Below are positions 41,108 to 63,705 of a stretch of DNA of 64,000 nucleotides, piece by piece. The first letter of the stretch is position 1; each line of letters opens with the position of its first letter. Source of the DNA: a virus (taxonomy: Duplodnaviria > Caudoviricetes); the IMG/VR virus record IMGVR_UViG_3300037400_002699, positions 32,001 to 96,000 of that record, one strand, 5' to 3'. Position numbers and translations under genes: made by a program. The notes below the pieces were generated by a model that ran no database searches, was not told the origin of the DNA, and was given only the letters and a program-made list of their open reading frames with translations.

Positions 41108-43144
41108 ATGAAAGAATTTTTATCTAGTGGCGTAGTTGGTAATATTGAGTACAACGCCCAGAAACAGATACGTGAGAGCATTCAGAACCGTTGGGACCAG
41201 CTCGGATTTACTGAGGGTCTTCCAGAGGGTATCAAGGAGAATGTTGCTACGTTGTATGAGAATGAGGCTAAGCACTTGATTTATGAGGCTACAGCTTCTG
41301 ACAATAGCGGTTCATTCGAGACTGTGGTATTCCCTATCATCCGTAGGGTATTCAGCAGACTTCTTGCTAATGACATCGTTTCAGTACAGGCTATGAACCT
41401 TCCTGTAGGTAAGTTGTTCTTCATCCTCCCTGTTACTTCAGAGAGAGAGTGGGAGCTTCCAGCAGAGATGACTGGCGACACTGAGCCTGGCGATATTGTA
41501 GACGGAACAACTGGTCGTCACCTTGGTCTTATGGGTTATGACAGAGTTAACCGTAACAAGGAAGGACGTGTTGAGCCACGTTACTATCTCCCAGACGAGA
41601 CAATCAATGAGCTTCAGAATGCATGGTACATCCCAGTTCTTAGCGACGAGGATACCTATGATACATTCGACGCTGCTAAGGAAGCTGCTATTGCAGCTGG
41701 TCTTAACCCAACAGCTATTCGTAGAGTAGGACCAGAGGTTACTCAGTACTTCCAGAAGAGTCTTTACGACTTGTTCTACAATGACTTCTTGTATGACAAC
41801 TCAAAGGGTAAGGTTACTATTAAGGTTGGTGAGGCTATCCCAGTATTCTTGACCCCTGGTGGTGTTCGCCCATTCGGTGCTGACAACTTGAATCAGTACT
41901 TCCAGAGTGGATTTGACGGAACTATCCGTAACGTCATCCTTGAGATTGATGGTTTCTCTTCATTCAACGCTTCTAAGTTGACTGGTCCTGACGGAAACGA
42001 AATGGACACTGAGGAGTTCCTTGCTTCATTGAAGGTTATCACACAGAAGGCTATTGCAGCTCAGAATGCTCCTGGTTCAGAGGACGTTAAGACTTCTGCT
42101 TTCAGAAAGTTTGAGTCTGTTCCATTCAGAGTAGTTACTCAGAAGTATGGTAAGGGTATCGTAGAGTACGGTGCTGCTTGCGACGCAGAGGGTAAGATGT
42201 ATATCGAGCTTGACCTTGCTAAGCCAGTTATCCAGCAGGCTGGAACAATCGATGGTTACATCGGTGTTGCTGCTTCAGAGCTTGACGCTGCAATTGTTAA
42301 GAGTGGAAACACTATTGACTACGAGGCAACTAAGGAGAATATCAAGTCTTTGTTCAAGATTGCTTGGGCACAGTATGATTCTCTTGAGCTTGAGACTGAA
42401 ATCGGTGAGGTTTCATTCAAGTTGGATTCAGTAACTGTATCAGTTGTAGAGAGAAAGCTTCGTGCTACCTGGTCTCCAGAGCTTGCACAGGACGTTTCTG
42501 CATTCCACAACATCGACGCAGAGGCTGAGTTGACAGCTATCCTTTCAGAGCAGATTGCTGCTGAGATTGACCGTGAGATTCTCCGTGACCTTAGAAAGGG
42601 AGCGCCTTGGCAGGCACGTTGGGATGTCAATGGTTGGAGGAGAATGGCTGCATTCTCTACAAACTACACCCAGAAGGACTGGAATCAAGAGTTGATGACT
42701 AAGATTAACCAGATTTCTGCACAGATTCACAAGTCTACACTTCGTGGTGGTGCTAACTTCATCGTTGTATCTTCAGAGATTTCTGCATTGTTCGATAACT
42801 TGGAGTTCTTCCACGTATCTGACGCTTCAGCAGAGAGCGACCAGTACAACATGGGTATCGAGAAGATTGGAGCACTTAACGGACGTTACACCGTATATCG
42901 TGACCCATATTCTCCACACTGGTCAATCATCATTGGTCACAAGGGTAAGTCACTTCTTGACACTGGTTACATCTATGCACCATATGTGCCAATGCAGTTG
43001 ACTCCTACAATGTACAACCCATTCAACTTCGCACCCGTAAAGGGGATAATGACGAGGTACGCTAAAAAGATGGTAAATAATCGTTACTATGGACATGTTC
43101 GTGTAGACGGTCTCGTACATTGGAGCATCAACGAATTCAGATAA
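41108..43144 (+). CDS. Major capsid protein (T4 gp23-like)
   Basis: FPIIRRVF...DIVSVQAMNLPVG; RKLRATWSPELAQD...DAEAEL..ILSEQIAAEIDRE; YIYAPYVP...GIMTRYA. Confidence 0.95.
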   Translation: MKEFLSSGVVGNIEYNAQKQIRESIQNRWDQLGFTEGLPEGIKENVATLYENEAKHLIYEATASDNSGSFETVVFPIIRRVFSRLLANDIVSVQAMNLPVGKLFFILPVTSEREWELPAEMTGDTEPGDIVDGTTGRHLGLMGYDRVNRNKEGRVEPRYYLPDETINELQNAWYIPVLSDEDTYDTFDAAKEAAIAAGLNPTAIRRVGPEVTQYFQKSLYDLFYNDFLYDNSKGKVTIKVGEAIPVFLTPGGVRPFGADNLNQYFQSGFDGTIRNVILEIDGFSSFNASKLTGPDGNEMDTEEFLASLKVITQKAIAAQNAPGSEDVKTSAFRKFESVPFRVVTQKYGKGIVEYGAACDAEGKMYIELDLAKPVIQQAGTIDGYIGVAASELDAAIVKSGNTIDYEATKENIKSLFKIAWAQYDSLELETEIGEVSFKLDSVTVSVVERKLRATWSPELAQDVSAFHNIDAEAELTAILSEQIAAEIDREILRDLRKGAPWQARWDVNGWRRMAAFSTNYTQKDWNQELMTKINQISAQIHKSTLRGGANFIVVSSEISALFDNLEFFHVSDASAESDQYNMGIEKIGALNGRYTVYRDPYSPHWSIIIGHKGKSLLDTGYIYAPYVPMQLTPTMYNPFNFAPVKGIMTRYAKKMVNNRYYGHVRVDGLVHWSINEFR

Positions 43145-49654: not shown

Positions 49655-50443
49655 TTATGTATTATTCTTTTTTAACTCATTATATTTATTTTCAGTAACT
49701 ATTACTGGATATGTTTTTATTTTTTTGAATTTATGCATCATAAACAGATTTGATAATCGTTCGGCGATATATCCTCCTATTCTATATTGGTATTCAACTG
49801 TATTATTTGGATAGAAAATTTTAATGTATTTTTCATAGTTGTCATATATTCTCTTATTGATGTCTGTTCCAACAATTTTTAGGTATTCATCAAGTATTGA
49901 GAATATAAAGTCTATATATTCCTTGAAGTCTTCCCTTTTCATTATGAACATGTTATATGGAATCAATATATTTCCGTTAATGAAATTCTTCCATATATTT
50001 GTTTGTTCTGGATATTTCTCAGCAATGATTCCACCAATGATATACAAGTCTTCAATGTTATGACAAAATAAATATTGTGTTTTCACATTTGTCTTTAACA
50101 CTTTTGGTTTTGAGCATATTGCATCATATTTAGAGAATATATCATCCATATCTGGAATATTATCAAGGAATGAGAAATATCTTCTGTTATGACAAAATCC
50201 AACATATTCTGGTAACTCTATATTTTTAGATACATAATATAGCATATATAATTCTGAATAGAACTTATCATCAAGTTTTAAATTATTTTTGCATTTTATA
50301 AGTTCAAGATTGGAATTATTTTCTATTTCATGATTTCCGACAATTATCTTATACACATCATTTTTAACAGCTGGTGTGAACGTTTTTTGAGTGCCTATAA
50401 AAATATTTAAATTATTGTTCATATCATTTAAAGTTTCTGTCAA
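49655..50443 (-). CDS. DUF4422-like glycosyltransferase
   Basis: YSEL, YVGFCHNRRYF, YNMFIMK..F..Y..FIF.IL and RIGGYIAERL motifs. Confidence 0.75.
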   Translation of the reverse strand: MTETLNDMNNNLNIFIGTQKTFTPAVKNDVYKIIVGNHEIENNSNLELIKCKNNLKLDDKFYSELYMLYYVSKNIELPEYVGFCHNRRYFSFLDNIPDMDDIFSKYDAICSKPKVLKTNVKTQYLFCHNIEDLYIIGGIIAEKYPEQTNIWKNFINGNILIPYNMFIMKREDFKEYIDFIFSILDEYLKIVGTDINKRIYDNYEKYIKIFYPNNTVEYQYRIGGYIAERLSNLFMMHKFKKIKTYPVIVTENKYNELKKNNT

Positions 50444-51244: not shown

Positions 51245-53179
51245 ATGGCTATAATTAACAACAATGTAGAGAACGTTAAGTTCTTGAGAAACCAAAATCC
51301 TTTTGAGTCACGTGAAGCTGCACGTACCGCTTTGGAGAGCAATAAGGGACAAGCTGCTGATGGTACTGCCTTGCTTGCTCGTTACACCATAACTGACGGA
51401 CAGACAACAGACGTTAAGACTCTTGTTGGTTTTGTTGCTGAGGTAAATTCAACAAAGTACGTCACAATATTTGACGTTGAAGGTGGAAGTGAGGATGTTA
51501 ATAATCTTCGTGAAGAGATTAATGCAAAACTTGGTACTACTTTCATTAGCTCAAGCAATACTGTAGAGTCAAACCTTACTGCTTTAAGTGGTAATAACAG
51601 TTCAACAAGTGCTGAGACCTCTGTTGAAGGTGCTAAGAGATATGCTGATGAATTAAAGAATCAGATGGATTACAGTGGTGTAACAACTGGAACTGGTGTT
51701 TATGTAACAAACGTAACACAGTCTGATGGTATTGTATCTGCAACAACTGCAACCCTTCCAACCGTAACTGGTGAGGTTGAGTCTAAGAAGGTTGTAATGA
51801 GTGTATCTGAGGACAAGGGAGAAATTGCTGTCACTAAGGGTACTATTGAATCTTCTGATAAGACTGTTGTAATAGGTGACTTGGCTGAAGGTAATGGTGT
51901 TGACTTCAAGGTTAATATTGATGGTGAGACACTTGTTGCTGATACAAGTACTGGTGTGATTAGTGTCGCTTCTGCTGCTCTTACACAGTATGTTGGCGAT
52001 GAAGACACCATACACATTTCTGCTGCTGATGCACAGAACAACAAGACTGTTAGTTCACTCCTTACAATTTCAGCAACAACTCCAAGTGAAGCTAATGTAA
52101 AGGAACAGTATAACCTTGTTGGCGCAAGTGGTAATACAATTGGTGCAACTATTAAAATTTATAAGGACAGTGCATTGCTTTCAGTTGCATTGTTACACGC
52201 TGATACCACAGCAAACCCACAAGTATTGCCAACATATGACAAGGCAACAAATACTTGGACTGATATTGCAGACCCAACAGACGAAAACCAAGCATTGTGC
52301 TATGCATATGAGGATGTAAGTGGAAACACTGTTGTTGCAGCAGTCCCAGTTGGTGCATTTATCAATGAGCAAGAGTTTGCAAGTGGTGTTACTTGGGATG
52401 CAACTGCAAATAAGGTTAAGGGTGTTGTTGACTCAACTTCAGAAAAGGATTCACAAGACACTCCAGTTGATTTCTTGACAGTTGGCGCTGATGGTTTCAA
52501 GATTAGTGGAATTAAGGATGAGATTGATAGACAACTTGACGCTGTGGTTGAAGACCTTGATGCAACCGTAACTGGTGAAACAGCAAACCAACATATCACA
52601 ATTTCCATTGAAGAACTTGATGGTAAACTTGTTCAGAGTGGCTTGACAATCACTGAAAGCAACATTGCAAACGCTGATGACCTTGCAGAACTTAGTGGAA
52701 AGACAGTAACCGCATTGACGTCTACAAATGGTAGTATTACTGCACAGATAGATGATGCTGCTGGCTGCAAGACATATGACATCGAGACTGATGCTGACAA
52801 GATTAAGATGAGTGGTTTCACAAGCACTGACGCACTTAGTGGCATTACAGAGGCTGATTCAATCGCAACAGCGTTTGAGAAGGTGGATGCAGTTATCACA
52901 GAGAATGAGCAAGTTACTTCTGAGGCATTGAACGACCTTAACTCTAGAATCAACACAGTTAGTGGCGAGGTTGAAACTCTTACAACAGACTCACTCAGTG
53001 GAATCACAGTTAATGGTACTGCTGTAGCACCATCAAATCACGTTGCTCCATTGGTAATTGATTCTACTTCTGCTGCAACTGAATCCAGCGATGGTAAGGC
53101 AATTACTGTTCAGACTGATGCAAATGGTAACATTACACTTGGAATTTCCTCAATTGATTGTGGCTACTATAGTGAGTAA
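51245..53179 (+). CDS. Thr/Ser/Asp-rich fibre or structural protein
   Basis: 644 aa, beta-rich low-complexity sequence, ends IDCGYYSE; TATTTAT 51190-96 upstream. Confidence 0.7.
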   Translation: MAIINNNVENVKFLRNQNPFESREAARTALESNKGQAADGTALLARYTITDGQTTDVKTLVGFVAEVNSTKYVTIFDVEGGSEDVNNLREEINAKLGTTFISSSNTVESNLTALSGNNSSTSAETSVEGAKRYADELKNQMDYSGVTTGTGVYVTNVTQSDGIVSATTATLPTVTGEVESKKVVMSVSEDKGEIAVTKGTIESSDKTVVIGDLAEGNGVDFKVNIDGETLVADTSTGVISVASAALTQYVGDEDTIHISAADAQNNKTVSSLLTISATTPSEANVKEQYNLVGASGNTIGATIKIYKDSALLSVALLHADTTANPQVLPTYDKATNTWTDIADPTDENQALCYAYEDVSGNTVVAAVPVGAFINEQEFASGVTWDATANKVKGVVDSTSEKDSQDTPVDFLTVGADGFKISGIKDEIDRQLDAVVEDLDATVTGETANQHITISIEELDGKLVQSGLTITESNIANADDLAELSGKTVTALTSTNGSITAQIDDAAGCKTYDIETDADKIKMSGFTSTDALSGITEADSIATAFEKVDAVITENEQVTSEALNDLNSRINTVSGEVETLTTDSLSGITVNGTAVAPSNHVAPLVIDSTSAATESSDGKAITVQTDANGNITLGISSIDCGYYSE

Positions 53180-53191
53180 TTACTTATGAAT

Positions 53192-53229
53192 AAAAAAAAG
53201 TCTAGATAACCTTTATCTAGACTTTTTTA
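53192..53229. terminator. Bidirectional terminator
   Basis: AAAAAAAGTCTAGATAA-CCT-TTATCTAGACTTTTTT. Confidence 0.8.
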
Positions 53230-54577
53230 TTTCTTTTAATAGTTTATTTTTATCAACAAATAGATTGTTTTTATTATATATTTTATTAAAATACTTTGTA
53301 TACCCTTTAACATTTGTATAATATAGTATTTTAATACCATTATCAACACACCCATTATATTTGATTACATCTTTTTCTATTCTGTTAACGTCTTTAAAAA
53401 ATGGGCTTTTTTCAAAGTGTTGAATTCCTTGGCATTCAATCACAACATTATATTTTGGTAAATAAAAATCAAATGGTAAAGGGTTTATATTTTTAACATT
53501 ATTAAATTTTTTTTGCCTTATATTTTCAATAGTGTTTTCATTTAATAATAGATTAATTTCTTCCTCTAATTTACTTTCATTACACAATGGGCAATTACTT
53601 TTACTTAGTATGTGGTTTGTTGGCATTTGCCAGAACTCTCCGTGCTTTGGACATATAATACAAACTGGTGTATGGTTATTCACATATTCGACCTTTGAAT
53701 AATCATATTTATCTCCATGTATTTCTTTTGCCTTTTTTATAAATTCTTCTGTGGTTGATTTTTTATTGTTGGAACAAATTGGGCATCCACACCCTTGTAA
53801 ATGGTGGTGATAATACTGTTCAAATTCACCGTGTTTTTTGCAGATTATTTTTATTTTTTTATTTTCTGAGATTTTATCAATTAAGCTATAATCGTATTCA
53901 TCTCCATGAATTTTTTTTGCTTTTTCAATAAACTCATCAACGTTTATTTTATCTTTTTTGGCGCATTTTTGGCATCCGCAACCTCTTAGATGGTTTTCTG
54001 GCATCTGATAGAATTCTCCATGTTCTGGACAAATTATACATACTTTTATTTTAGCTCCTTTATATTCAACTTTTGAGTAATCATATTTATCTCCATGTAT
54101 TTTTTTTGCCTTGCTGATAAATTGTTTTGTTTGTTCTTTTATTTTATCCTCATCAATTATTTCTGGGTATTTTATTCCTCGTCTACCTAAGAATGGCATA
54201 CCTGTTTTAGATTTTAAATGAACGAATGGGTATTGCCAAAACTCCCCAGTAGGATTTTCTTCAGTAATTAATTCTTTGCACATTATGCAAACTTTTTCCC
54301 TTCTATTTGTATAAACGGTTTTTGAGTAGTCAAATTTATCACCAAATTTTTCAGTAGCATCTTTTATAAAATTTTCTGTTGTATAATTACGCCTTTTTCC
54401 AATGCATTTTGGACATCCTTGGCCACGTAAATGCGCATATACTACTTGTTCGAACTCACCGTGTATAGGACATATTATTTTCATTTTTTTTAATACTGAT
54501 ATATTACTAAATTTAGGGTAATCATATTTATTACCATGAACAATTTTTGCTCTTTTTACTATTTCATCATATTTCAT
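53213..54577 (-). mobile_element. Free-standing homing-endonuclease-like gene (repeated Zn-ribbon modules plus Vsr/PD-(D/E)xK-like nuclease domain)
   Basis: About five copies of HGDKYDYSKVEY...IICPxHGEFxQ...H..G.GCP.C; C-terminal PFDFYLP...IECQGIQH; antisense insertion; very AT-rich. Confidence 0.8.
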
Positions 54578-54693: not shown

Positions 54694-54728
54694 ATGAGGA
54701 ATTGTTTGAATACAGTTCCTCATTTTTT
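54694..54728 (+). terminator. Repeated terminator A (copy 2 of 3)
   Basis: ATGAGGAATTGT-TTGAAT-ACAGTTCCTCATTTTT. Confidence 0.8.
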
Positions 54729-54783: not shown

Positions 54784-55980
54784 ATGGCAATCTATTTAAA
54801 GAAGTTTGAGAATCATACGCAGTATGATAATTACATCAATGGTAGTGGAGCAATACTACCAAATGTATCTATATGTGTAACAGAAGGTGATGTGCATTAT
54901 AATCCTTATGTGTCACCATATGCTGGTTTCTGTAAACTGGTATTAAGCAATGGTGAAACTGTAGAACTTGAAGGTAGTGGGCGATTAACAAGTGCGCATA
55001 CAAGAGAATACAGTGCAACAACCGTAAATGCTGAAATTGGCACACAGTGTACAAGTATTGGTGAAAGGACTTTCTTTCAATGTACTAGTCTTACAAGTTG
55101 TACTATAGGAAGTGGCGTTACAAGTATTGGTACATATGCTTTCTATAAATGTAGCGGTCTTACAAATATAGTTGTGCCTAATAGTGTTACAACTATTGGT
55201 TATAATGCTTTCGATAGTTGTAGTAGTCTTACAAGTATAGATATACCAGATAGTGTTATAAGTATTGGCGATGCTGCTTTCGGTTATTGTACTAGTCTTA
55301 CAAGTTGTACTATAGGTAGTGGTGTTACAACTATTGGTGATAGTATTTTCCAACGTTGTAGTGGTCTTACAAGAATGAACAGTGACATTGATGGTGTATT
55401 CAACATTCCAAGTGGTGTTACAAGTATTGACCATAATGCTTTCAATAATTGTAGAAGTCTTACAAGTATAGAAATACCAAGTGGTGTTACAAGTATTGGC
55501 TATGGTGCTTTCTCTGATTGTACTAGTCTTACAAATATAGTTATACCTAATAGTGTTACAACTATTGGTCATTATGCTTTCTCTCATTGTACTAGTCTTA
55601 CAAATATAGTTGTGCCTAATAGTGTTACAACTATTGGTAATAATGCTTTCGGTAGTTGTAGTGGTCTTACAAGTTGTACCATAGGTAATGGTGTTACAAG
55701 TATTGGCGAGGAGGCTTTCACATATTGTAGTAGTCTTACAAGTTGTACCATAGGTAATGGTGTTACAAGTATTGGTACTTATGCTTTCAGAAAATGTAGT
55801 AGTCTTACAAGTATAGTATGTAATGCTACCACATCACCTACAATATCAAGTACTACATTCCGAGATGTCAAGACAAGGGGCACATTAACAGTGCCAAGTG
55901 GTAGTAGTGGTTATGATGTATGGATGGGTACAGGAAATTATTATCTAGGAAAATATAATTGGACGAAGGTAGAACAATAA
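54784..55980 (+). CDS. BspA-type (LRR_5) leucine-rich repeat protein with shared N-terminal anchor
   Basis: Tandem 23-aa CxxLTSxxIPxxVTSIGxxAF repeats. Start MAIYLKKF at 54784; the ORF-track ATG 54694 lies inside the terminator hairpin. Confidence 0.9.
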   Translation: MAIYLKKFENHTQYDNYINGSGAILPNVSICVTEGDVHYNPYVSPYAGFCKLVLSNGETVELEGSGRLTSAHTREYSATTVNAEIGTQCTSIGERTFFQCTSLTSCTIGSGVTSIGTYAFYKCSGLTNIVVPNSVTTIGYNAFDSCSSLTSIDIPDSVISIGDAAFGYCTSLTSCTIGSGVTTIGDSIFQRCSGLTRMNSDIDGVFNIPSGVTSIDHNAFNNCRSLTSIEIPSGVTSIGYGAFSDCTSLTNIVIPNSVTTIGHYAFSHCTSLTNIVVPNSVTTIGNNAFGSCSGLTSCTIGNGVTSIGEEAFTYCSSLTSCTIGNGVTSIGTYAFRKCSSLTSIVCNATTSPTISSTTFRDVKTRGTLTVPSGSSGYDVWMGTGNYYLGKYNWTKVEQ

Positions 55981-55988
55981 TAATATAA

Positions 55989-56018
55989 GAGTAATCAGAA
56001 ATGGTTGCTCTTTTTTTA
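55989..56018 (+). terminator. Repeated terminator B (copy 1 of 2)
   Basis: GAGTAATCA-GAAA-TGGTTGCTC-TTTTTTT; second copy at 63721. Confidence 0.8.
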
Positions 56019-56041
56019 TTTTTGGTTTGATATTTATGTAT

Positions 56042-56227
56042 ATGAAGGAAGATAACAATATAAATTGGGAACAGATAAGGATTGATGCTAGCATTAATAT
56101 AATGAATGCCATATTGTCAAGTTCTATTATGGTATTCATATTTCAGTTTATATTCAAGAGGCAGATTGCAGATATTGCGGTTAGTTATGCCAATAAATTG
56201 ATTGAGGAATTAAAGAAAAACAAATAA
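56042..56227 (+). CDS. Small hypothetical protein
   Basis: ATG just downstream of TATTTAT 56031; WEQIRI...AVSYANKLIEELK. Confidence 0.55.
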   Translation: MKEDNNINWEQIRIDASINIMNAILSSSIMVFIFQFIFKRQIADIAVSYANKLIEELKKNK

Positions 56228-56230
56228 AAT

Positions 56231-58834
56231 ATGAAGTATTTTAGAATATTTAAAGACACTGAGGAATATATAGAGTATATGGCAAGTCCATACGCTATAT
56301 TGCCAAATGTGGCGTATTGTAAGGATGGATATAGTTACATAGCAGGAGAAGTAACTCCTCCAACACCTGTGGATGTAACTGGTGTAACAATTAATACAGT
56401 ATCAACCACAATATATGTTGGCTCAACATATCAATTGGTTGCAACAGTATTGCCAATTAATGCAACTGATAAGGCTGTTACTTGGTCATCAAGTGATAGT
56501 ACTATCGCTACAGTATCAAATAACGGTTTGGTAACAGCACTTACAACTGGTGCAACAACTATTACAGTAACAACACATGATGGAAGCTATACAGCATCTT
56601 GCGCAGTAGCTGTAGAAGAGGCTACCGTTACAACATTGACAATTGTTGGAGCACCTTCTATTAGTGCAGAAACTTGTAATTATGAGGCAATTGGAGACAA
56701 TTCAGAAGATGTCACATCATCTGCAACTTGGAGTATTACTTCTGGTTCACAATATGCAACCATTAATCCTAACAATGGTATCGTTACCATTTTGAATGGT
56801 GCAAATAAATCAAATGTAACAATACAAGCAGAATATGCTGGCTTAACGGCAACTACAAATGTGACGCTGACTTATGTTAGTGGGGCTACATCTGAAACTG
56901 AAACAGAATCTACAACAGATATTGGTGGCAACACAACTACAGTCACAACAACTGTTACTACAAAACAAGATGGCTCAAAAGTAGAGGTAACAGAAACTGT
57001 TATTACTGATGCCAATGGCGACTTAATTGGTACTAGTAAGAGCAATAAAACTATTAATACTGATGGTTCTTATAATGGTACTACAACCAATTATGATGCT
57101 GAAGGTAATCCAATGGACGGTAGCAATGTGACTGGTGATACTGAGGGTAATGTAAGCACTCAGACCATTGAATATGATGGTAGCGGTAATGCTACCGTAA
57201 CTGGATACGATATTGATACAAGTGGTAGTGAAAGTGGTAAGACATTCAATAGTGGTGGTACAAATACAGAATATTATGCATTTGACTTAACTCACGGATT
57301 TATACTTGACTTTGATTTCACAATTGACTTCAGTAATCAGCCATCTGGCCAAAGTGAAAATCACCATAATATATTAACTGCTAAGAGAGCAAATCCAGAA
57401 CCTTGGTATGGATTCCAAATAAGACAAACTAGTTCAAATAAGTATATACAACTTGGAACACAGTTTACGACTGGTAGTAATATCAATACAAATATAAATC
57501 CATCATCTATTACTGGTAATGTTGGAAGTTATAGTTTGAGAATAGTATATGACCCAAATTTAAGTGGAAATAAGTTTGTATGCACTAATATGGTAACTGG
57601 TAATGAAATTTATAGTAGTACTGGAACATTCCCAGATTTACCAGAGCTTAAATATCTTAGAATAACCATTGGTAATGCAACTGACGGTGACGGAAATCCT
57701 TTCAGATATTCAAACATTACCGTGTCTAAATTTGAATTGAAGAAACTTAAGTATGTTGCTAATCCAACAATGGCTTATGAGAATGGTACTGTTGTAATAA
57801 GTTGTAGTACAGTTGGTGCTAGCATATATTACAGATTGAATTTATCTGGTTCTTACAGTGCATATACAACGCCAATTACAATAACAGCAGATACTGTTGT
57901 CCAAGCATATGCTACATATAGTGGCGACACAAGTGATATAATTAGAGAAGACTTTAAGATAGTTGATGTAACTGGTGTTACTCTCAGTGACAACTCAATA
58001 TCAATTATAGAGGGTAGAACATATACCTTATCTGCAACAGTTTTACCAAATAATGCGTTGAATAAAAATGTTACTTGGTCATCAAGTGACAGCAATGTTG
58101 CCTCAGTAGACTCAAATGGTGTTGTGAGTGGTGTTTCATCTGGTAGTGCTACTATAACAGTAACAACTCACGATGGTGGCTATACAGCACAATGTGCAGT
58201 TAGTGTATCAGCTTCACCATACACAGAACTTGAATATATTGAAAGTACAAGTGATGGCGGACAATATATTGATTTGGATATAAAACTCTATGAAACGCTG
58301 AATACATGGTATGATGTTGCGACTAAGTTTATTGTAAAGGGACCTGGTTATGACAACCTCCAACCAACATTATTTGGCTGTCAAACCACATCTAAACCTT
58401 GGCCTGGCACGTTCATCAGAATGAATTCTATTGATGCGAAAAATGTCATTGGAAGATATATAGGAGGTTCTAATAAAGATAACACTTTAGGAAATATAAA
58501 TGCTATACTAGAATTACCAGTTAGAACAGCACCAGATAAAAACGTGTATAACTTGAACAATAGTAATCAAACACACCGTTGGGGTACGTCTTTATTCTGT
58601 ACTTTTGAAAGCGAGGATAAAACATCAGTAAGTAGGTTTATTAATGCAAGGCTATATTATTTCAAGTTATTCTTAAAGGCAAGTGCTAGTAGTGAAGGAA
58701 CATTGGTTAGAGACATGGTTCCTTGCAAGAGAAACTCAGATAATAAGGTAGGTTTACTTGATAAGGTTAATAATGTATTCTATGTTTCTCCAAATGGTGC
58801 TGAATTTGTTGGAGGACCAGAAGCTAGTGTATAA
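56231..58834 (+). CDS. Ig-like (Big_2) multidomain adhesin/fibre with shared N-terminal anchor
   Basis: Two Big_2 domains (LxATVLPxNAxxKxVTWSSSD..VA.V..G.V); Fn3-associated-like domain; lectin-like segments. Confidence 0.8.
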   Translation: MKYFRIFKDTEEYIEYMASPYAILPNVAYCKDGYSYIAGEVTPPTPVDVTGVTINTVSTTIYVGSTYQLVATVLPINATDKAVTWSSSDSTIATVSNNGLVTALTTGATTITVTTHDGSYTASCAVAVEEATVTTLTIVGAPSISAETCNYEAIGDNSEDVTSSATWSITSGSQYATINPNNGIVTILNGANKSNVTIQAEYAGLTATTNVTLTYVSGATSETETESTTDIGGNTTTVTTTVTTKQDGSKVEVTETVITDANGDLIGTSKSNKTINTDGSYNGTTTNYDAEGNPMDGSNVTGDTEGNVSTQTIEYDGSGNATVTGYDIDTSGSESGKTFNSGGTNTEYYAFDLTHGFILDFDFTIDFSNQPSGQSENHHNILTAKRANPEPWYGFQIRQTSSNKYIQLGTQFTTGSNINTNINPSSITGNVGSYSLRIVYDPNLSGNKFVCTNMVTGNEIYSSTGTFPDLPELKYLRITIGNATDGDGNPFRYSNITVSKFELKKLKYVANPTMAYENGTVVISCSTVGASIYYRLNLSGSYSAYTTPITITADTVVQAYATYSGDTSDIIREDFKIVDVTGVTLSDNSISIIEGRTYTLSATVLPNNALNKNVTWSSSDSNVASVDSNGVVSGVSSGSATITVTTHDGGYTAQCAVSVSASPYTELEYIESTSDGGQYIDLDIKLYETLNTWYDVATKFIVKGPGYDNLQPTLFGCQTTSKPWPGTFIRMNSIDAKNVIGRYIGGSNKDNTLGNINAILELPVRTAPDKNVYNLNNSNQTHRWGTSLFCTFESEDKTSVSRFINARLYYFKLFLKASASSEGTLVRDMVPCKRNSDNKVGLLDKVNNVFYVSPNGAEFVGGPEASV

Positions 58835-58855
58835 CGTCATTTAATAATATAAAAT

Positions 58856-61800
58856 ATGAAATATACAAAATTATTTAACAATCACAATGAATACGTGGCG
58901 TATACTGGTAGTACTGCATTTATACGCCCAAACGTATCATATTGCATATTAGAGGATGAACCTCACTGTACACCTCAGCATTTCTGCCAGGAAGTTCATA
59001 TATATGAGCTTATGGGAGAACCATCATACCCTTCAAGCGTTCCAGCAAGCGCAACATCATTTGATTTGTCGTTCAGTTATACTGATACATACACATCAAC
59101 AACGTGCGACCAAGGAAGCTTTATGGATGGAGACACAGTGACAATACCAATTGAGGAAAACCCATCAATGTCAGCAAGGACAATAAGCGGAACTTATGTT
59201 TTCCACGATATAAACATACCTTATAGTTTTACACAAGAAGGTAGGGAAGAATTGCCATATAATCAGCAGTATCTTACATTTGAGATATTGACTGGTGGAA
59301 CTATACTATGGAAGGCAGCAACTACTGCTGTGACTAGAACAATATCATACAGCGTGAACTATGGGGAATGGACTGAAATAACCTCTTCAACTGATGGAGT
59401 TGCAATTAATGTAAGTGCTGGTGACAAAGTTAGATTTAAAGGAACTAACCAAGCATATGGAACAGCAAAAGATACTGTTTCCACATTTAGCGGAAGTACC
59501 GCATCATTTGATGCATATGGTAATGCAATGAGCCTTATCGGTGGTGATGATTTCAGTGGTTTAACATCATTTACTACAGATTGGGCGTTCCACGATTTGC
59601 TCAACACAACCAATGTTGTATCAGCGAAGAATTTGATATTGCCAGTTACAACTCTTAGAAGTTATTGCTATCGTGCAATGTTCGCACACGCAAAACAGCT
59701 CGTAGAAGCGCCAGAGCTTCCTGCAACCACATTGGCTGCTAGTGGATATTGCTATATGTTCCAAGAATGTACAGCATTGCAGAAAGCACCAGACCTATTG
59801 GCTGAGAATATTGTTGGCGGCTGTTACATTGGTATGTTCAATAGCGCAAGCACGTTGAACTACATCAAATGTACTGCAACTGGTGGTGTTACAACTGGAA
59901 ACACCAAAGACTGGACAAAGACCGTATCAAATACTGGTACGTTTATAAGGGCATCTAATGTGAATTGGACAAGGGATGTAAATGGTGTTCCTGCTAGTTG
60001 GGAATTATATAATGATACAAACGTTGAAGCACCAACCATCTCATTTAATGGCTTTGAAACAATAACATTGTCTTGTGAAACTGAAGGTGCTGATATATTG
60101 TATAAACTAAATGATACAGGAGAATACAGTGCGTATACAACACCTATAATAATAAGCGAAGATACATTCATTGAAGCTTATGCTACATATAGCGGAGAGA
60201 CAAGTAGACCAATAAGTCAGACTTGTGTATATGTGAGTGATGTTCCTATTGAATACTCAAACAGAGACCTTAAGAAATGGCAGTATGGAGGACAAGAGAT
60301 TACAACCCCATATTCTGTTAACGCAATTGACGGACATTCTTCAAGTTATGCAAAGGGAACATTTACATTTGAAACAAGTTTTGCGTTAAAGGAAGCAGAA
60401 CCAACATATCTATGGTTTCAACACGCTGACCAATCAGCGGAGATATACATTGACAATACATTGGTTGAAAAGCACTGGGGAGGATATGCTGCATTCACAA
60501 GCGATATATCAGAATATGTTCACGAAGGTATTAATAGCGTAAAAGTTGCAATCAAGAACAATGAAGGTAATAACCTTGCGCCAGCAAGTGCTGACTTCAA
60601 CTTCAATGCGACTCTTGGTAATGTAAGGTTGCTTACAAGTCCATATGTTCCAGCAATGGAATATGGATATGACGGTTTCCATATCACTTCAACAGTGTCT
60701 GACGCAGAGGCAACTGTCAATATAAGGACAAGTGTTCCAACTGGTGCTACGTTGGTTTGTAAGATTGATGATGGTAATACCAATATATATTCTGCAACAA
60801 GCGCAAGTACTGGTGAGGAAATGACATTCACAAAGGTTATTGCAAACCCTCATCTATGGAATGGTAAATCAGACCCATATATGTATACAGTTACACTTGA
60901 GATATATGAAGGCAATGACTTGTATCATAGGTTTGTAAGACCTTATGGATTGAGATACTATGAATATGTAATCAATGATACTGAAAAAGTCGGAACAGTA
61001 AGTGAACCATATACTGGTTTCTTGCTCAATGGCTCTCCATATCTTCTTAGAGGTTGTTGTATGCACGATGACATAGATGGAAAGGCAAACGCATTGGATG
61101 AAACGGATTATGATAATACATTCGCTACCATACAAGAATTGGGGCTTAACTTCTTAAGGCTTGCTCACTATCCTCATCCGAAGGAGGTATATGACAGATG
61201 TGACAGACTTGGTATCGTAGTTCATACTGAAGGCCCTTGTGTTAATAAACTTCAGTCAACAATGCCAGCTGATTATTATACACACTTGACTGGTCAGTAT
61301 ACAGATATGGTTAATCAGCATTACAATCACCCTTGTATTTTCTTCTGGGGTCTTAGCAATGAGACGCAAACTGATGACAAGAACTTCGGTAAACAGAAGG
61401 TAGAGGAATACACAGCACTCATCAAGAGTCTTGACTCTGAGAGGATGGTAGGTTATGTACTTGCACAAGGAAACGGTACAAGTCCAAGTGCATATTACAA
61501 TGACCCATCCAACGTTGACTGGTTCGGATGCAACATATATGTGGGGTGGTACGACAGTCCAAATTCTAATACTCCTGTGTCTCAGATTAACACACGTCTT
61601 AACAATACCATCAATAGGGTTGGCAAACCAATGGCATACTCTGAGTATGGTTGTGGTGGTACTCCAACTTGTCACTCAGATGATTACATGACAACTACTA
61701 CAAGGGGTAACAAACCACGTCACGATATTGAATATATGATGTGGTTGCACGAAGGTCATATTGCAACTATAAAGCAATATCCTCAACTATTGTATACATC

Positions 61801-62209
61801 ACAGTGGCAGTTGTTTGATATTGCAGTTGCAAGCAGAAATGAGGGATATACAGAATGTCTTGACGGTGTGAATACATCAACGAATGATGCTCTTAGGAGA
61901 CTCAATGACAAGGGACTTGTGGAGAGAGACCACGTTACAAAGAAAGACCCATTCTATCTATATAAGGCTTGGTGGAATACGACACCGTTTGTGCATATAT
62001 GTCAGAAAAACTATACAAAGATGACTGATAGGGTTATCAAGTGCTACACAAACCAGACAACTGAGTTTGCGTTAAAAGTAAACGGAACAACGGTTGAAAC
62101 AAAGGCAGCAACTGATAACATTCTTACGTTTACAGGACATACATTCAGTAGTGGTGATGTAGTAACCGTTGAGAGTGGTAATATTAGTGATACATTTACA
62201 TTTGAATAA
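58856..62209 (+). CDS. GH2-family glycoside hydrolase fused to anchor, LRR-like and Fn3-like domains
   Basis: PHLWNG..DPY.Y; GLNFLRLAHYPH...YDRCDRLG; NHPCIFFWGLSNE (acid/base); SEYG (nucleophile); NDKGLV...KKDPFYLYK. Confidence 0.88.
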   Translation: MKYTKLFNNHNEYVAYTGSTAFIRPNVSYCILEDEPHCTPQHFCQEVHIYELMGEPSYPSSVPASATSFDLSFSYTDTYTSTTCDQGSFMDGDTVTIPIEENPSMSARTISGTYVFHDINIPYSFTQEGREELPYNQQYLTFEILTGGTILWKAATTAVTRTISYSVNYGEWTEITSSTDGVAINVSAGDKVRFKGTNQAYGTAKDTVSTFSGSTASFDAYGNAMSLIGGDDFSGLTSFTTDWAFHDLLNTTNVVSAKNLILPVTTLRSYCYRAMFAHAKQLVEAPELPATTLAASGYCYMFQECTALQKAPDLLAENIVGGCYIGMFNSASTLNYIKCTATGGVTTGNTKDWTKTVSNTGTFIRASNVNWTRDVNGVPASWELYNDTNVEAPTISFNGFETITLSCETEGADILYKLNDTGEYSAYTTPIIISEDTFIEAYATYSGETSRPISQTCVYVSDVPIEYSNRDLKKWQYGGQEITTPYSVNAIDGHSSSYAKGTFTFETSFALKEAEPTYLWFQHADQSAEIYIDNTLVEKHWGGYAAFTSDISEYVHEGINSVKVAIKNNEGNNLAPASADFNFNATLGNVRLLTSPYVPAMEYGYDGFHITSTVSDAEATVNIRTSVPTGATLVCKIDDGNTNIYSATSASTGEEMTFTKVIANPHLWNGKSDPYMYTVTLEIYEGNDLYHRFVRPYGLRYYEYVINDTEKVGTVSEPYTGFLLNGSPYLLRGCCMHDDIDGKANALDETDYDNTFATIQELGLNFLRLAHYPHPKEVYDRCDRLGIVVHTEGPCVNKLQSTMPADYYTHLTGQYTDMVNQHYNHPCIFFWGLSNETQTDDKNFGKQKVEEYTALIKSLDSERMVGYVLAQGNGTSPSAYYNDPSNVDWFGCNIYVGWYDSPNSNTPVSQINTRLNNTINRVGKPMAYSEYGCGGTPTCHSDDYMTTTTRGNKPRHDIEYMMWLHEGHIATIKQYPQLLYTSQWQLFDIAVASRNEGYTECLDGVNTSTNDALRRLNDKGLVERDHVTKKDPFYLYKAWWNTTPFVHICQKNYTKMTDRVIKCYTNQTTEFALKVNGTTVETKAATDNILTFTGHTFSSGDVVTVESGNISDTFTFE

Positions 62210-62214
62210 TATTA

Positions 62215-62250
62215 ATGAGGAATTGTTTGAGTACAGTTCCTCATTTTTTA
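62215..62250 (+). terminator. Repeated terminator A (copy 3 of 3)
   Basis: ATGAGGAATTGT-TTGAGT-ACAGTTCCTCATTTTTT. Confidence 0.8.
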
Positions 62251-62307
62251 TTTTTCATCAAATATTTATATAGAAATGAATAATAAGTTTTAAACAATAT
62301 AACTAAT

Positions 62308-63705
62308 ATGGCAATTTATTTAAAGAAATTCAGTACTCATCAAGAGTATGAGGCGTTCACAGCTACAACAGCATTCATAAAACCTAACGTATCAATATGT
62401 ACAACAGAAGGTGATGTGCATTACAACCCACTTAAATGCGAAGAGTCATCAACGTATGAACTCGTTGGCACTCCTTCATATCCATCAGAGGTGGATGGAG
62501 CAAACACATCATTCGATATGACATTCAATTATAAAAGGACTGACATAAATGAGAAATGTAAAGAGACGATTACAGAAGGCAGTGACACTGTAACTGTAGA
62601 GATTGGCACAAATCCAAGCACAGCAAGTTCAAGGACAGTTGAAGGCACTTATGACTATCATGGATTGGAGATTGCATACAGCGTTACGCAGACCAAGTTT
62701 GAAGCTAAGATAACTGCAAAAGTTAATGTAACTGATACAAGCAGTCCAACGAGGATTGCAAGTGGTACAAGTAATATCTCTGCTATTGAGATAGATGGTG
62801 TCAAGCAAGGCAGTGTAACGACTGGCTATACGTTTGATGCTGTTGGTGAACATACAGTTAAGTATACATTGAAAGACCAAACAAGTATTGGCCGATATGA
62901 TTTTGCTGGTTGTAGTAGTCTTACAAGTATAGATATACCAAATAGTGTAACAAGTATTGATAGTAGTACTTTCGAACGTTGCAGTGGTCTTACAAGTTGT
63001 ACCATAGGTAGTGGTGTTACAAGTATTGGTCAGAGTGCTTTCTCTTATTGTACTAGTCTTACAAGTATAGATATACCAAGTGGTGTTACAAGTATTGGTC
63101 AGAGTGCTTTCAATGGTTGTAGTAGACTTACAAGTTGTACAATAGGTAATGGTGTTACAAGTATAGGTAATTATGCTTTCGTTTCTTGTAGAAGTCTTAC
63201 AAGTATAGATATACCAAGTGGTGTTACAAGTATTGGTCAGAGTGCTTTCCAAGATTGTAGTAGTCTTACAAGTATAGATATACCAAGTGGTGTTACAAGT
63301 ATTGGTCGGAGTGCTTTCGATTTTTGTAGTAGTCTTACAAGTATAAACATACCAAATGGTGTTACAAGTATTGGTCAGAGTGCTTTCTTGAATTGTAATA
63401 GTCTTACAAGTATAGATATACCAAGTGGTGTTACAAGTATTGGTAATAGTGCTTTCTCTTATTGTAGTAGTCTTACAAGCATAGAAATCCCAAGTGGTGT
63501 TACAAGTATTGGTGATGAAACTTTCAGATATTGTACTAGACTTACAAGTGTAACAATTAATGCAACCACACCTCCAACATTGGTAGCCAGCGCTTTTTAT
63601 AACACTAACAATTGTCCGATATATGTTCCATCAGCGAGTGTTGAAACATATAAGTCTACAAGTGGTTGGAGTTCGTATGCAAGTAGAATACAAGCAATAC
63701 CTTAA
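62308..63705 (+). CDS. BspA-type (LRR_5) leucine-rich repeat protein with shared N-terminal anchor
   Basis: About ten 23-aa/69-nt repeats; C-terminal cap IYVPSASVETYKSTSGWSSYASRIQAI. Confidence 0.9.
   Translation: MAIYLKKFSTHQEYEAFTATTAFIKPNVSICTTEGDVHYNPLKCEESSTYELVGTPSYPSEVDGANTSFDMTFNYKRTDINEKCKETITEGSDTVTVEIGTNPSTASSRTVEGTYDYHGLEIAYSVTQTKFEAKITAKVNVTDTSSPTRIASGTSNISAIEIDGVKQGSVTTGYTFDAVGEHTVKYTLKDQTSIGRYDFAGCSSLTSIDIPNSVTSIDSSTFERCSGLTSCTIGSGVTSIGQSAFSYCTSLTSIDIPSGVTSIGQSAFNGCSRLTSCTIGNGVTSIGNYAFVSCRSLTSIDIPSGVTSIGQSAFQDCSSLTSIDIPSGVTSIGRSAFDFCSSLTSINIPNGVTSIGQSAFLNCNSLTSIDIPSGVTSIGNSAFSYCSSLTSIEIPSGVTSIGDETFRYCTRLTSVTINATTPPTLVASAFYNTNNCPIYVPSASVETYKSTSGWSSYASRIQAIP

What the first reader, a model, noticed from the sequence alone, without database searches (positions are those of the whole stretch)
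54784..63705. Second modular system: a shared ~40-aa N-terminal anchor carrying swappable adhesin/enzyme payloads
Seen: four neighbouring large genes begin with related segments: MAIYLKKFENHTQYDNYINGSGAILPNVSICVTEGDVHYNP (54784), MKYFRIFKDTEEYIEYMASPYAILPNVAYC (56231), MKYTKLFNNHNEYVAYTGSTAFIRPNVSYC...PHCTP (58856) and MAIYLKKFSTHQEYEAFTATTAFIKPNVSICTTEGDVHYNP (62308). The consensus is Y.K.F..H.EY..Y.......PNVS.C. Payloads differ: BspA LRR, Big_2/lectin, LRR plus GH2, and BspA LRR. 58856 and 62308 also share the next module (YEL.G.PSYPS.V.....SFD..F.Y...D), and 56231 and 58856 share an Fn3-associated-like module. Inference: a common virion docking peptide lets the phage display a mixed set of receptor-binding, mucus-binding and capsule-degrading heads on equivalent sites.
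Basis: partly seen in the sequence, partly recalled or inferred. Interest (0 to 1): 0.78.

Follow-up and report, generated by a model that had tools for sequence, protein, structure and literature searches.

The report
Shared N-terminal mini-domain on jumbo-phage adhesins
Five neighbouring genes of an uncultured rumen giant phage start with the same folded 42-residue domain, unknown to the domain databases searched, placed in front of unrelated sugar-binding, protein-binding or sugar-cutting domains; it most likely bundles them in threes and plugs them onto the virus particle, a principle already known from other phages.

Summary
Four genes in the window start with the same ~42-aa module, at 54784, 56231, 58856 and 62308. 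A fifth copy lies 5 kb past the window end. A profile of the module scores E 3e-27 to 6e-12 on these five and 0.25 on the next best ORF.

The module is an autonomous, undescribed domain family.
- No Pfam, NCBIfam or PHROG model covers it.
- A profile search found 1,883 protein clusters, almost always at residue 1.
- The domains behind it are LRR_5, Big_2, Lcl_C/C-type-lectin, GH2 and others.
- Every source is an uncultured phage contig or rumen/gut MAG contig of up to 435 kb. No GenBank phage carries it.

AlphaFold gives a confident beta-alpha-beta-beta fold. Its best structural matches are the collagen XV/XVIII trimerisation domain, then the N-terminal caps of the trimeric phage fibres Mtd and HylP. 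These matches are weak.

My reading is a trimerising docking foot for interchangeable adhesin and enzyme heads. Virion attachment is not shown. Close relatives of the phage (capsid protein 90% identical) lack the module altogether, so it is accessory.

The closest known systems are the N-terminal docking peptides of branched receptor-binding proteins and the DUF7941 proteins of phage Goslar.

This scan found the same family before on other DNA (e1-5459785, e1-5633525, e1-5709648).

The parts
54784..54906 (+). Module copy 1 (residues 1-41, ends in HYNP) of gene 54784-55980
54784..55980 (+). Gene 1: module plus BspA-type LRR (LRR_5) protein, 398 aa from the true start. The ORF start at 54694 is an artefact that reads through a terminator hairpin.
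55987..56012 (+). Terminator-like hairpin after gene 1
56027..56227 (+). Small 66-aa protein with a hydrophobic stretch read here as membrane-spanning. A paralogue follows the fifth module gene, and homologues lie next to module genes in other phage contigs.
56231..56320 (+). Module copy 2, a divergent subtype (PNVAYC, no HYNP). The same subtype heads a 1641-aa protein in a related 412-kb phage.
56231..58834 (+). Gene 2: module, Big_2, unassigned beta-rich regions, a CHB_HEX_C-like stretch, Big_2 and an unassigned C-terminal domain; 867 aa
58856..58975 (+). Module copy 3 (ends in HCTP)
58976..59257 (+). Second shared module (motif YEL.G.PSYP) of gene 3, residues about 41-134
   Evidence: (47% identity to gene 4 over 130 aa)
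58856..62209 (+). Gene 3: module, second module, LRR-like region, CHB_HEX_C_1 and a GH2 glycosidase, 1117 aa. The GH2 motifs SNETQ (residue 834) and SEYG (residue 929) are present. No terminator separates it from gene 2; the gap is 21 nt.
62214..62245 (+). Terminator-like hairpin after gene 3. A near-identical copy lies just upstream of gene 1.
62308..62430 (+). Module copy 4 (59% identical to copy 1)
62431..62703 (+). Second shared module of gene 4, residues about 42-132
62308..63705 (+). Gene 4: module, second module and BspA-type LRR, 465 aa
63718..63745 (+). Terminator-like hairpin after gene 4

Best explanation
The first ~42 residues of these proteins form an autonomous mini-domain with the order strand, helix, strand, strand. 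The consensus is roughly M.KYLKKF.NH.EY..Y......ILPNVS.C..E.EVHYNP. It belongs to a large family that the domain databases searched here do not cover, and that is confined to uncultured jumbo phages of rumen and gut.

Shown:
- The module sits at the extreme N-terminus.
- It is conserved at protein level.
- It ends sharply after HYNP.
- Recombination joins it to many unrelated extracellular-type payloads: BspA LRR, Ig-like Big_2, Lcl_C/C-type-lectin and GH2 glycosidase.
- Each separately encoded polypeptide carries its own copy.
- The proteins lack signal peptides, and in this phage they lie inside a movable island of fibre genes next to the head genes.

Inferred:
- The module homotrimerises the payload, as the collagen XV/XVIII trimerisation domain it resembles does.
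- It serves as a common three-fold foot that fixes the heads to a site on the virion. That site is more likely a fibre or a peripheral tail structure than the capsid.
- One phage can thus carry several alternative binding and sugar-cutting heads and exchange them by recombination behind the module.
For: Independence and shuffling:
- 1,883 clusters match the module profile at E<=1e-3 and 459 at E<=1e-10.
- Among the best 150, the module starts at residue <=3 in 141, and 7 of the other 9 have a Met at the module start.
- Of 79 relatives, payloads are LRR_5 in 47, Big_2 in 6, Lcl_C in 6 and GH2 in 3.
- Conservation drops after position 41-45.

Recombination:
- A 1641-aa protein of a related 412-kb phage equals gene 2 (residues 135-574) plus gene 3 (residues 135-1117). 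In the window this is split into two genes, and the second half has its own module.
- The same payload entry segments sit behind a second, unrelated head piece in another phage.

Fold:
- The 252-aa fifth protein gives pLDDT 94 and the module alone 90.7, with the same element order.
- Foldseek's top hits are the collagen XVIII/XV trimerisation domains: TM 0.65-0.67, rmsd 1.2-1.5 A over 37-38 residues.
- VIA-align gives Z 4.0-4.3 with 38-41 of 46 residues aligned.
- Next come the N-termini of trimeric phage fibres: HylP2 residues 9-46, Mtd residues 5-40 and several tailspikes.

Context:
- The genes lie in a ~26-kb island with four coiled-coil fibre genes and the 1035-aa fibre, directly after terminase, portal and the Gp23-type capsid gene.
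- The island is syntenic in the 412-kb relative.

Precedents:
- N-terminal conserved peptides dock secondary receptor-binding proteins (PMC6872550).
- Goslar DUF7941 proteins with carbohydrate-binding, GH and LRR domains are found in virions by mass spectrometry (doi 10.64898/2026.04.21.720040).
Against: No experiment or structure shows these proteins in a virion, and no cultured or GenBank phage carries the module.

The fold matches are weak: Foldseek E>1, Z about 4, 0-8% identity, on a very small and simple fold. Only one of the five module-only models was highly confident.

No collagen-like or coiled-coil stalk follows the module in any of 150 members, and LRR or GH2 payloads need not be trimers.

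No partner was found:
- There is no T4_gp9_10_N domain in five genomes.
- Gene-content comparison of module-bearing and module-free complete genomes gave no structural candidate.

In other complete genomes the copies are scattered among non-structural genes. They lie far from the one baseplate-like gene found.

Two members in the 412-kb relative lack the conserved Cys and His.
Confidence: 0.5

Rival explanations
1. The module is only an oligomerisation (avidity) tag. The proteins would be soluble multivalent lectins, adhesins and glycosidases released at lysis, not virion parts. They might, for example, mask or destroy receptors on debris and neighbouring cells.
For: The best fold match is a free-standing trimerisation domain that is used as a generic tag on unrelated payloads (PMC13309602). 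No docking partner was found. Copies are scattered among non-structural genes in other genomes. The module is accessory, being absent from relatives with a 90% identical capsid protein.
Against: In this phage and its 412-kb relative the genes are interleaved with fibre genes in one island. The same lectin payload sits on the tip of a long fibre. The comparable payload set in Goslar is virion-associated (doi 10.64898/2026.04.21.720040). Strict N-terminal placement and strong conservation across phage lineages fit a conserved binding partner.
Confidence: 0.22
2. The module is a monomeric docking peptide or domain that binds a branching domain of a primary fibre. This is what the N-terminal conserved peptides of secondary receptor-binding proteins do in KP32-, G7C-, K1-5- and PhiK64-1-type phages. 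No trimerising role would belong to the module itself.
For: The layout is the same: a short conserved N-terminus, variable heads and several paralogues per genome (PMC6872550). Fibre genes are adjacent.
Against: No T4gp10-type domain was found at Pfam sensitivity. The module is a folded domain with about a dozen conserved hydrophobic or aromatic positions, many for a 42-residue monomer. The fold matches point to trimer caps.
Confidence: 0.15
3. The module is a capsid-targeting signal that loads proteins into the prohead, like the 10-residue signal at the N-terminus of T4 internal proteins. The phage has a distant T4-type capsid protein.
For: It has a Gp23-type capsid protein. The N-terminal placement and a loosely similar start (MK.Y..F) come from my own recall of the T4 signal.
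Against: The module is a 42-residue folded domain, not a 10-residue peptide. No conserved [LI]-x-E protease site follows it. The payloads are extracellular-type binding and glycosidase domains. The module also occurs in a phage with no detectable homologue of this capsid protein.
Confidence: 0.04
4. The conservation reflects a DNA-level element, such as a shared translation-initiation or recombination cassette used for gene swapping, rather than a functional protein domain.
For: Genes 1 and 4 share a near-identical upstream terminator hairpin, and the genes sit in repeated cassettes.
Against: 7 of the 9 invariant residues use different codons among the paralogues. The upstream regions do not align beyond that hairpin. 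The family keeps its protein consensus across 1,883 clusters. AlphaFold folds it confidently.
Confidence: 0.03

Closest known systems
Conserved N-terminal docking peptides and anchor domains of branched multi-RBP systems (Klebsiella KP32/KP34/Menlow/PhiK64-1 groups, E. coli G7C and K1-5, CBA120), Latka et al. 2019, PMC6872550
   Same: A short conserved N-terminus precedes highly variable C-terminal binding or enzymatic heads. There are several paralogues per genome, and jumbo phages carry up to about 11. Heads are exchanged by recombination behind the conserved part.
   Different: There is no sequence relationship. Here the unit is a folded 42-residue domain, not a 7-29-residue peptide. The payloads are mostly LRR and lectin domains rather than beta-helix depolymerases. 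No T4gp10-type branching domain was found, and attachment has not been demonstrated.
DUF7941 'fibre cloud' proteins of chimallivirus Goslar (gp22, gp23, gp86, gp92, gp161), bioRxiv 10.64898/2026.04.21.720040
   Same: [quoted passage not shown] Those proteins were detected in virions by mass spectrometry.
   Different: DUF7941 is much larger (an N-terminal globular domain plus linker) and is reported only in chimalliviruses. It is proposed to polymerise head to tail. No Pfam model of any kind matches the module here. The present phages have a T4-type capsid protein.
Trimerisation domain of multiplexin collagens XV and XVIII (PDB 3n3f, 3hon, 3hsh)
   Same: It is the best fold match by two aligners and covers most of both domains. 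In both cases a roughly 45-55-residue unit sits N-terminal to a linker and a globular payload. The collagen domain works as a portable trimerising tag on unrelated proteins (PMC13309602).
   Different: Sequence identity is 0-8% and the scores are weak. Common ancestry is not supported. No collagen repeats adjoin the module. Trimer formation by the module is untested.
N-terminal caps of trimeric phage fibre proteins Mtd (Bordetella phage BPP-1, PDB 1yu0) and HylP2 (PDB 2dp5)
   Same: They occupy the same position (residues about 5-46), have similar size and give a weak fold match. Mtd also carries a C-type-lectin head, as do the fifth protein and the adjacent fibre.
   Different: Z is only 2.2-2.4. 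Mtd has an intermediate domain that the 250-aa module-lectin proteins lack.
T4 Hoc/Soc-type capsid decoration proteins
   Same: They are accessory, patchily distributed surface proteins of T4-type capsids. Ig-like domains are displayed.
   Different: No sequence or fold match was found. The module also occurs in a phage without a detectable homologue of this capsid protein.

Membership tests
New N-terminal module family (this report; no database name) | Match to the 42-residue profile at the extreme N-terminus | tested here: met
   The five copies score E 3e-27 to 6e-12. 1,883 clusters match at E<=1e-3. 141 of the best 150 start at residue <=3.
Any curated domain family covering residues 1-45 | Hit in Pfam-A, NCBIfam or PHROGs over the module | tested here: not met
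   No model aligns to residues 1-45. A PDB sequence search with the profile gave nothing.
Multiplexin collagen trimerisation domain | Same fold | tested here: inconclusive
   It is the top match: TM 0.65-0.67, rmsd 1.2-1.5 A, Z 4.0-4.3, 38-41 residues aligned. But Foldseek E>1 and the fold is small.
Multiplexin collagen trimerisation domain | Sequence similarity and adjacent collagen (G-X-Y) repeats | tested here: not met
   0-8% identity. No run of five or more G-X-Y triplets in 150 members.
Multiplexin collagen trimerisation domain | Forms stable homotrimers | not testable with these tools
   No multimer prediction is available here. It needs SEC-MALS or AlphaFold-multimer.
Branched-RBP docking peptide system (Latka et al. 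2019) | Conserved N-terminus on several RBPs with variable heads | tested here: met
Branched-RBP docking peptide system (Latka et al. 2019) | T4gp10-like branching domain in a partner RBP | tested here: inconclusive
   PF07880 has no match at E<=1 in G000-G003 or G005. Only Pfam sensitivity was used; the published work used HHpred.
Branched-RBP docking peptide system (Latka et al. 2019) | Physical attachment to the virion | not testable with these tools
   The phage is uncultured and no proteome is available.
BspA-type LRR (PF13306 LRR_5), genes 1 and 4 | Pfam match above the gathering score | tested here: met
   306 and 259 bits against a cut-off of 27.7
Glycoside hydrolase family 2, gene 3 | The three GH2 domains plus the acid/base NE and nucleophile E-Y-G motifs | tested here: met
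   PF02837, PF00703 and PF02836 all above cut-off. 274 bits to the LacZ4 beta-glucuronidase model, below its equivalog cut-off of 950. SNETQ at residue 834 and SEYG at 929. Reading these motifs as catalytic rests on my knowledge of GH2.
Lcl_C / C-type-lectin fold, fifth protein | Fold or profile match | tested here: inconclusive
   The protein itself has no Pfam or NCBIfam hit. Six relatives hit Lcl_C. The model gives Z 6.9 to the Lcl C-terminal domain and Z about 6 to the DGR variable proteins TaqVP, TvpA and Mtd.
T4 capsid-targeting sequence | About 10-residue N-terminal peptide ending in a conserved [LI]-x-E prohead-protease site | tested here: not met
   The column profile of 110 modules shows no such site, and the unit is a 42-residue folded domain.

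The most novel reading that the evidence does not exclude
The module is a self-trimerising universal plug for a repeated three-fold socket on the particle, for instance quasi-three-fold sites of the T4-type capsid lattice or sites along the accessory fibres. Each virion would then be a natural mosaic display of up to seven or more different adhesin and enzyme heads. The conserved module subtypes would keep paralogues from mixing, or would allow defined heterotrimers. That would be a natural phage-display platform and a new 42-residue trimerisation tag.
Probability: 0.12. Interest if true: 0.8.

Novelty: new variant of a known kind. Interest (0 to 1): 0.5.

Why it matters
Uncultured rumen and gut jumbo phages encode large repertoires of LRR, lectin, Ig-like and glycosidase proteins whose place in the phage life cycle is unknown. 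One small, unannotated domain heads about 1,900 protein clusters. That gives a single handle for finding these repertoires, for asking where they sit on the particle, and for following how heads are exchanged between phages.

If the predicted trimerising fold holds, the module would also be a very small portable trimerisation or docking tag. The principle itself, a conserved N-terminal foot with swappable heads, is already established in other phages. The gain is a new domain family and a testable mechanism, not a new kind of system.

Tried and rejected
- tblastn of two module sequences against 50,697 GenBank phage records gave no real match. megablast of the 24-kb region against the same records also gave none.
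- A PDB sequence search with the module profile and the ESM Atlas search were uninformative.
- The search for related loci with the module alignment failed for lack of a sufficiently conserved stretch. I replaced it with a degenerate DNA pattern.
- Partner hunt by gene content: I took proteins present in module-bearing genomes (G000, G001, G003) and absent from module-free complete genomes (G005, G009). The result was only small unannotated proteins, the 606-aa fibre and the 66-aa membrane protein. None is shared with G003 as a structural candidate.
- Searches for a T4gp10-type branching domain, a tail sheath and Baseplate_J gave no useful co-localisation.
- A zinc or metal site formed by the conserved His, Cys and His was considered and dropped. 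Two members in the 412-kb relative lack both Cys and His, and the fifth copy has Tyr at both His positions.
- A lipoprotein or signal-peptide reading of the conserved Cys was dropped. The preceding 30 residues are polar and charged, with no hydrophobic core.
- No collagen-like repeats or coiled coils follow the module.
- The two papers describing the collagen XV and XVIII trimerisation domains (PMC3048824, PMC3048825) are not held, so I could not quote the published topology.

Full report
WHAT THE WINDOW IS

The window is positions 32001-96000 of a 134,273-bp IMG/VR virus record that CheckV rates 45% complete. It encodes a large terminase (31963-33843), a portal (33904-35949) and a Gp23-type major capsid protein (41108-43144). 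The capsid protein is only 25-27% identical to those of T4-like phages, and at best 40% over half its length to that of a Microcystis phage. No GenBank phage matches the region at DNA level. Capsid-protein relatives lie on contigs of 273-412 kb, several with terminal repeats. This is therefore a fragment of an uncultured jumbo phage of the wider T4 capsid lineage.

Genes at 54784, 56231, 58856 and 62308 begin with the same ~42 residues.
- An HMM of the four, run against all ORFs of the record, scores them E 3e-27 to 3e-20. It finds a fifth copy at record position 101148-101906 (E 6e-12), about 5 kb beyond the window end. Nothing else scores below E 0.25.
- The longest ORF of gene 1 starts at 54694, but that extension reads through a terminator hairpin shared with the region upstream of gene 4. 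The true start is 54784.
- Seven of the nine invariant residues are encoded by more than one codon among the five copies. The flanks do not align beyond that hairpin. Selection therefore acts on the protein, and this is not a recent DNA duplication.
Genes 1 and 4 carry LRR_5. Gene 2 carries two Big_2 domains plus unassigned regions. Gene 3 carries the three GH2 domains, with both catalytic-type motifs present.
- The fifth protein is a 252-aa module-plus-lectin protein. Its model has pLDDT 94, and residues 40-252 match the Lcl C-terminal domain (Z 6.9) and DGR variable proteins (Z about 6).
- The two secondary sharings are real. Genes 3 and 4 share 47% identity over 130 aa. Genes 2 and 3 share 37% over 147 aa.

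A LARGE, UNANNOTATED FAMILY

No Pfam, NCBIfam or PHROG model covers residues 1-45.
- A five-sequence profile, searched against 1.84 billion representative proteins, found 1,883 clusters at E<=1e-3 and 459 at E<=1e-10.
- In 141 of the best 150 the module starts at residue 1-3. In 7 of the other 9 a Met sits exactly at the module start, which points to mis-called starts like that of gene 1.
- Column statistics on 110 members show F8, Y14, P26, N27 and C31 invariant. Y4, K6, H11, V28, S29, V37 and H38 are above 90%. Conservation collapses after position 41-45.
- Of 79 members of at least 200 aa, 47 carry LRR_5, 6 Big_2, 6 Lcl_C and 3 GH2, with a few carrying CHB_HEX_C, Fn3_assoc or Fib_succ_major.
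- A degenerate DNA pattern for PNVS.C(6)HYNP hit 32 stretches in IMG/VR contigs of up to 435 kb. It also hit 11 contigs of rumen or gut MAGs assigned to inconsistent taxa, which are most simply mis-binned phage DNA.
- The ten members I looked up are unnamed or called 'hypothetical protein' in their source databases.
- Complete genomes of 412, 393 and 353 kb carry 7, 7 and 3 copies.

EVIDENCE THAT IT IS A PORTABLE UNIT

(a) A 1641-aa protein of the 412-kb relative consists of a gene-2-type module, then the equivalent of gene 2 residues 135-574, then the equivalent of gene 3 residues 135-1117 (77% identity). In the window the same material is two adjacent genes with no terminator between them. 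The downstream half has acquired its own module plus the second module shared with gene 4. Each separately made polypeptide thus keeps a module.

(b) The lectin payload of a 245-aa module protein on another contig is 84% identical to the C-terminal tip (residues 833-1035) of the 1035-aa fibre that follows gene 4. The same head can therefore sit at the end of a long fibre or directly behind the module.

(c) In the 353-kb phage, four genes carry a different, unrelated head piece (starting MNVND) in front of the same payload entry segments, next to module genes. In the 412-kb phage a lectin payload sits behind a third kind of N-terminus.

Alternative N-terminal 'addresses' combined with a shared pool of heads is the pattern expected of attachment or assembly modules.

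STRUCTURE

AlphaFold places the same elements in the module inside the 252-aa protein (strand 4-7, helix 10-19, strands 24-28 and 33-37) and in the module alone (strand 5-8, helix 11-18, strands 27-31 and 36-40; best model pLDDT 90.7, the other four 65-74).
- Foldseek's top hits for the isolated module are the collagen XVIII and XV trimerisation domains: TM 0.65-0.67, rmsd 1.2-1.5 A over 37-38 residues, probability 0.7-0.8, but E>1.
- VIA-align, run without Foldseek against 48,161 chains, ranks the same domains first (Z 4.0, or 4.3 in the second look, with 38-41 of 46 residues aligned).
- Next come N-terminal segments of trimeric phage fibres and tailspikes at Z 2.0-2.7: HylP2 residues 9-46, Mtd 5-40, Klebsiella Kp7 gp52 14-62, a K1 lyase 10-49 and Acinetobacter AS12 gp42 16-67.
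- These scores are low, as they must be for 46 residues, and identity is 0-8%. I treat the match as a lead for mechanism, not as homology.
- The collagen domain is a portable trimerising unit that works on unrelated fusion partners at either end (PMC13309602).
- About a dozen conserved hydrophobic or aromatic positions in 42 residues is more than a monomeric three-stranded sheet plus one helix would bury. That fits an oligomer or partner interface, but this step is inference.

CONTEXT

In this record the five genes lie in a ~26-kb island (record 76.6-102.1 kb). The island holds, in order:
- two coiled-coil fibre genes (window 44657 and 47125);
- a DUF4422 gene and a third fibre gene (51245);
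- a homing-type HNH endonuclease on the other strand;
- the four module genes;
- the 1035-aa fibre and a 606-aa fibre, then the fifth module gene;
- two copies of a 66-aa protein with a hydrophobic stretch I read as membrane-spanning, one after gene 1 and one after the fifth module gene.

The island follows the capsid gene directly. The whole island is syntenic in the 412-kb relative, but there it lies about 45 kb from the capsid gene and far from the only Baseplate_J-like gene.

A complete 295-kb relative with a 90% identical capsid protein has no module at all. Flanking genes that bracket the island here are adjacent there, and only three of the fibre genes are found, elsewhere in that genome. 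Two further complete relatives (capsid protein 73% and 55% identical) also lack the module. The module proteins are therefore accessory.

The 353-kb phage that does carry the module has no BLAST-detectable homologue of this phage's capsid, portal or terminase proteins. Its copies are scattered among non-structural genes. This argues against the capsid protein as the specific partner and keeps a non-virion role open.

MECHANISM AND ODDS

I regard it as near certain that this is an autonomous, recombinationally shuffled N-terminal domain. I put about 45-50% on homotrimerisation and about 50-55% on virion attachment. The combined statement, a trimerising docking foot, gets 0.5 as the single best reading.

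The main rival (0.22) is a pure avidity tag on soluble lectins and enzymes released at lysis. Lesser rivals are a monomeric docking domain of the KP32 RBP2 kind (0.15), a T4-type capsid-targeting signal (0.04) and a DNA-level cassette element (0.03). The last two are disfavoured by the folded 42-residue unit with no protease site and by the synonymous variation.

COMPARISON WITH WHAT IS KNOWN

The principle is established. Latka et al. describe conserved N-terminal anchors and short docking peptides that attach several variable receptor-binding proteins in Klebsiella and E. coli phages, including jumbo phages with up to eleven (PMC6872550).

[quoted passage not shown] It proposes attachment at the peripheral baseplate (doi 10.64898/2026.04.21.720040).

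The present module shares the layout and the payload types but has no sequence relationship to either. It is far smaller than DUF7941, and no branching domain was detected. I therefore class it as a new variant of a known kind: a new domain family with a possibly new (trimerising) way of doing a known job.

The same family was reported earlier in this scan on other phage genomes (e1-5459785, e1-5633525). One report noted homopolymer tracts just behind the head piece (e1-5709648). I see such tracts in six related loci (G7-11 inside the module loop, C10 right after HYNP) but none in this window.

Noticed in passing
window 56027-56227; record 101929-102126 (L057:5929-6126): Two paralogous 65-66-aa proteins with a hydrophobic stretch read here as membrane-spanning. 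Each lies directly after a module gene (copy 1 and copy 5). Homologues 74-90% identical lie next to module genes on two other phage contigs and in the 412-kb relative. They are absent from the module-free relatives.
   Followed up: partly
window 51245-53179 and L057:3186-5006: A second shared N-terminal head piece, about 95 aa, 36% identity, E 2e-10. The 606-aa fibre is present in module-bearing relatives and missing from the module-free 295-kb relative.
   Followed up: partly
G003 (353-kb phage) 107764-110097, 147953-149467, 153309-154484, 155707-156699: A third, unrelated N-terminal head piece (starts MNVND, about 55 aa plus an acidic Gly-rich linker). It carries the same LRR entry segments as the module family, in genes adjacent to module genes.
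   Followed up: no
G001 133740-138665 versus window 56231-62209: One 1641-aa gene in the 412-kb relative corresponds to window genes 2 and 3. This is a fission or fusion event in which the downstream half gained its own module and second module.
   Followed up: yes
record 76.6-102.1 kb (window 44657 to past the window end): The whole fibre and adhesin island is movable. It sits between homologues of two genes that are adjacent in a 295-kb relative. In the 412-kb relative it lies about 45 kb from the capsid gene.
   Followed up: partly
L024, L032, L042 (poly-G at about nt 50 of the module); L009, L026, L028 (C10 at nt 118, just after HYNP): Homopolymer tracts inside or right behind the module in related phages could act as slippage switches. 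There are none in this window.
   Followed up: partly
window 53213-54577 (minus strand): A homing-type HNH endonuclease gene (phrog_559, E 5e-75) lies between the 644-aa fibre gene and the first module gene. A paralogue lies at L058:5038-6039.
   Followed up: no
window 49655-50443 (minus strand): A DUF4422 gene (E 9e-33), a family I recall as glycosyltransferase-like, is embedded in the fibre island on the opposite strand. It is conserved at 76% identity at the edge of the island in the 412-kb relative.
   Followed up: no
L007:6106-6843 versus record 95875-98982: The lectin head of a 245-aa module protein on another contig is 84% identical to the C-terminal tip of the 1035-aa fibre that follows gene 4.
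   Followed up: partly
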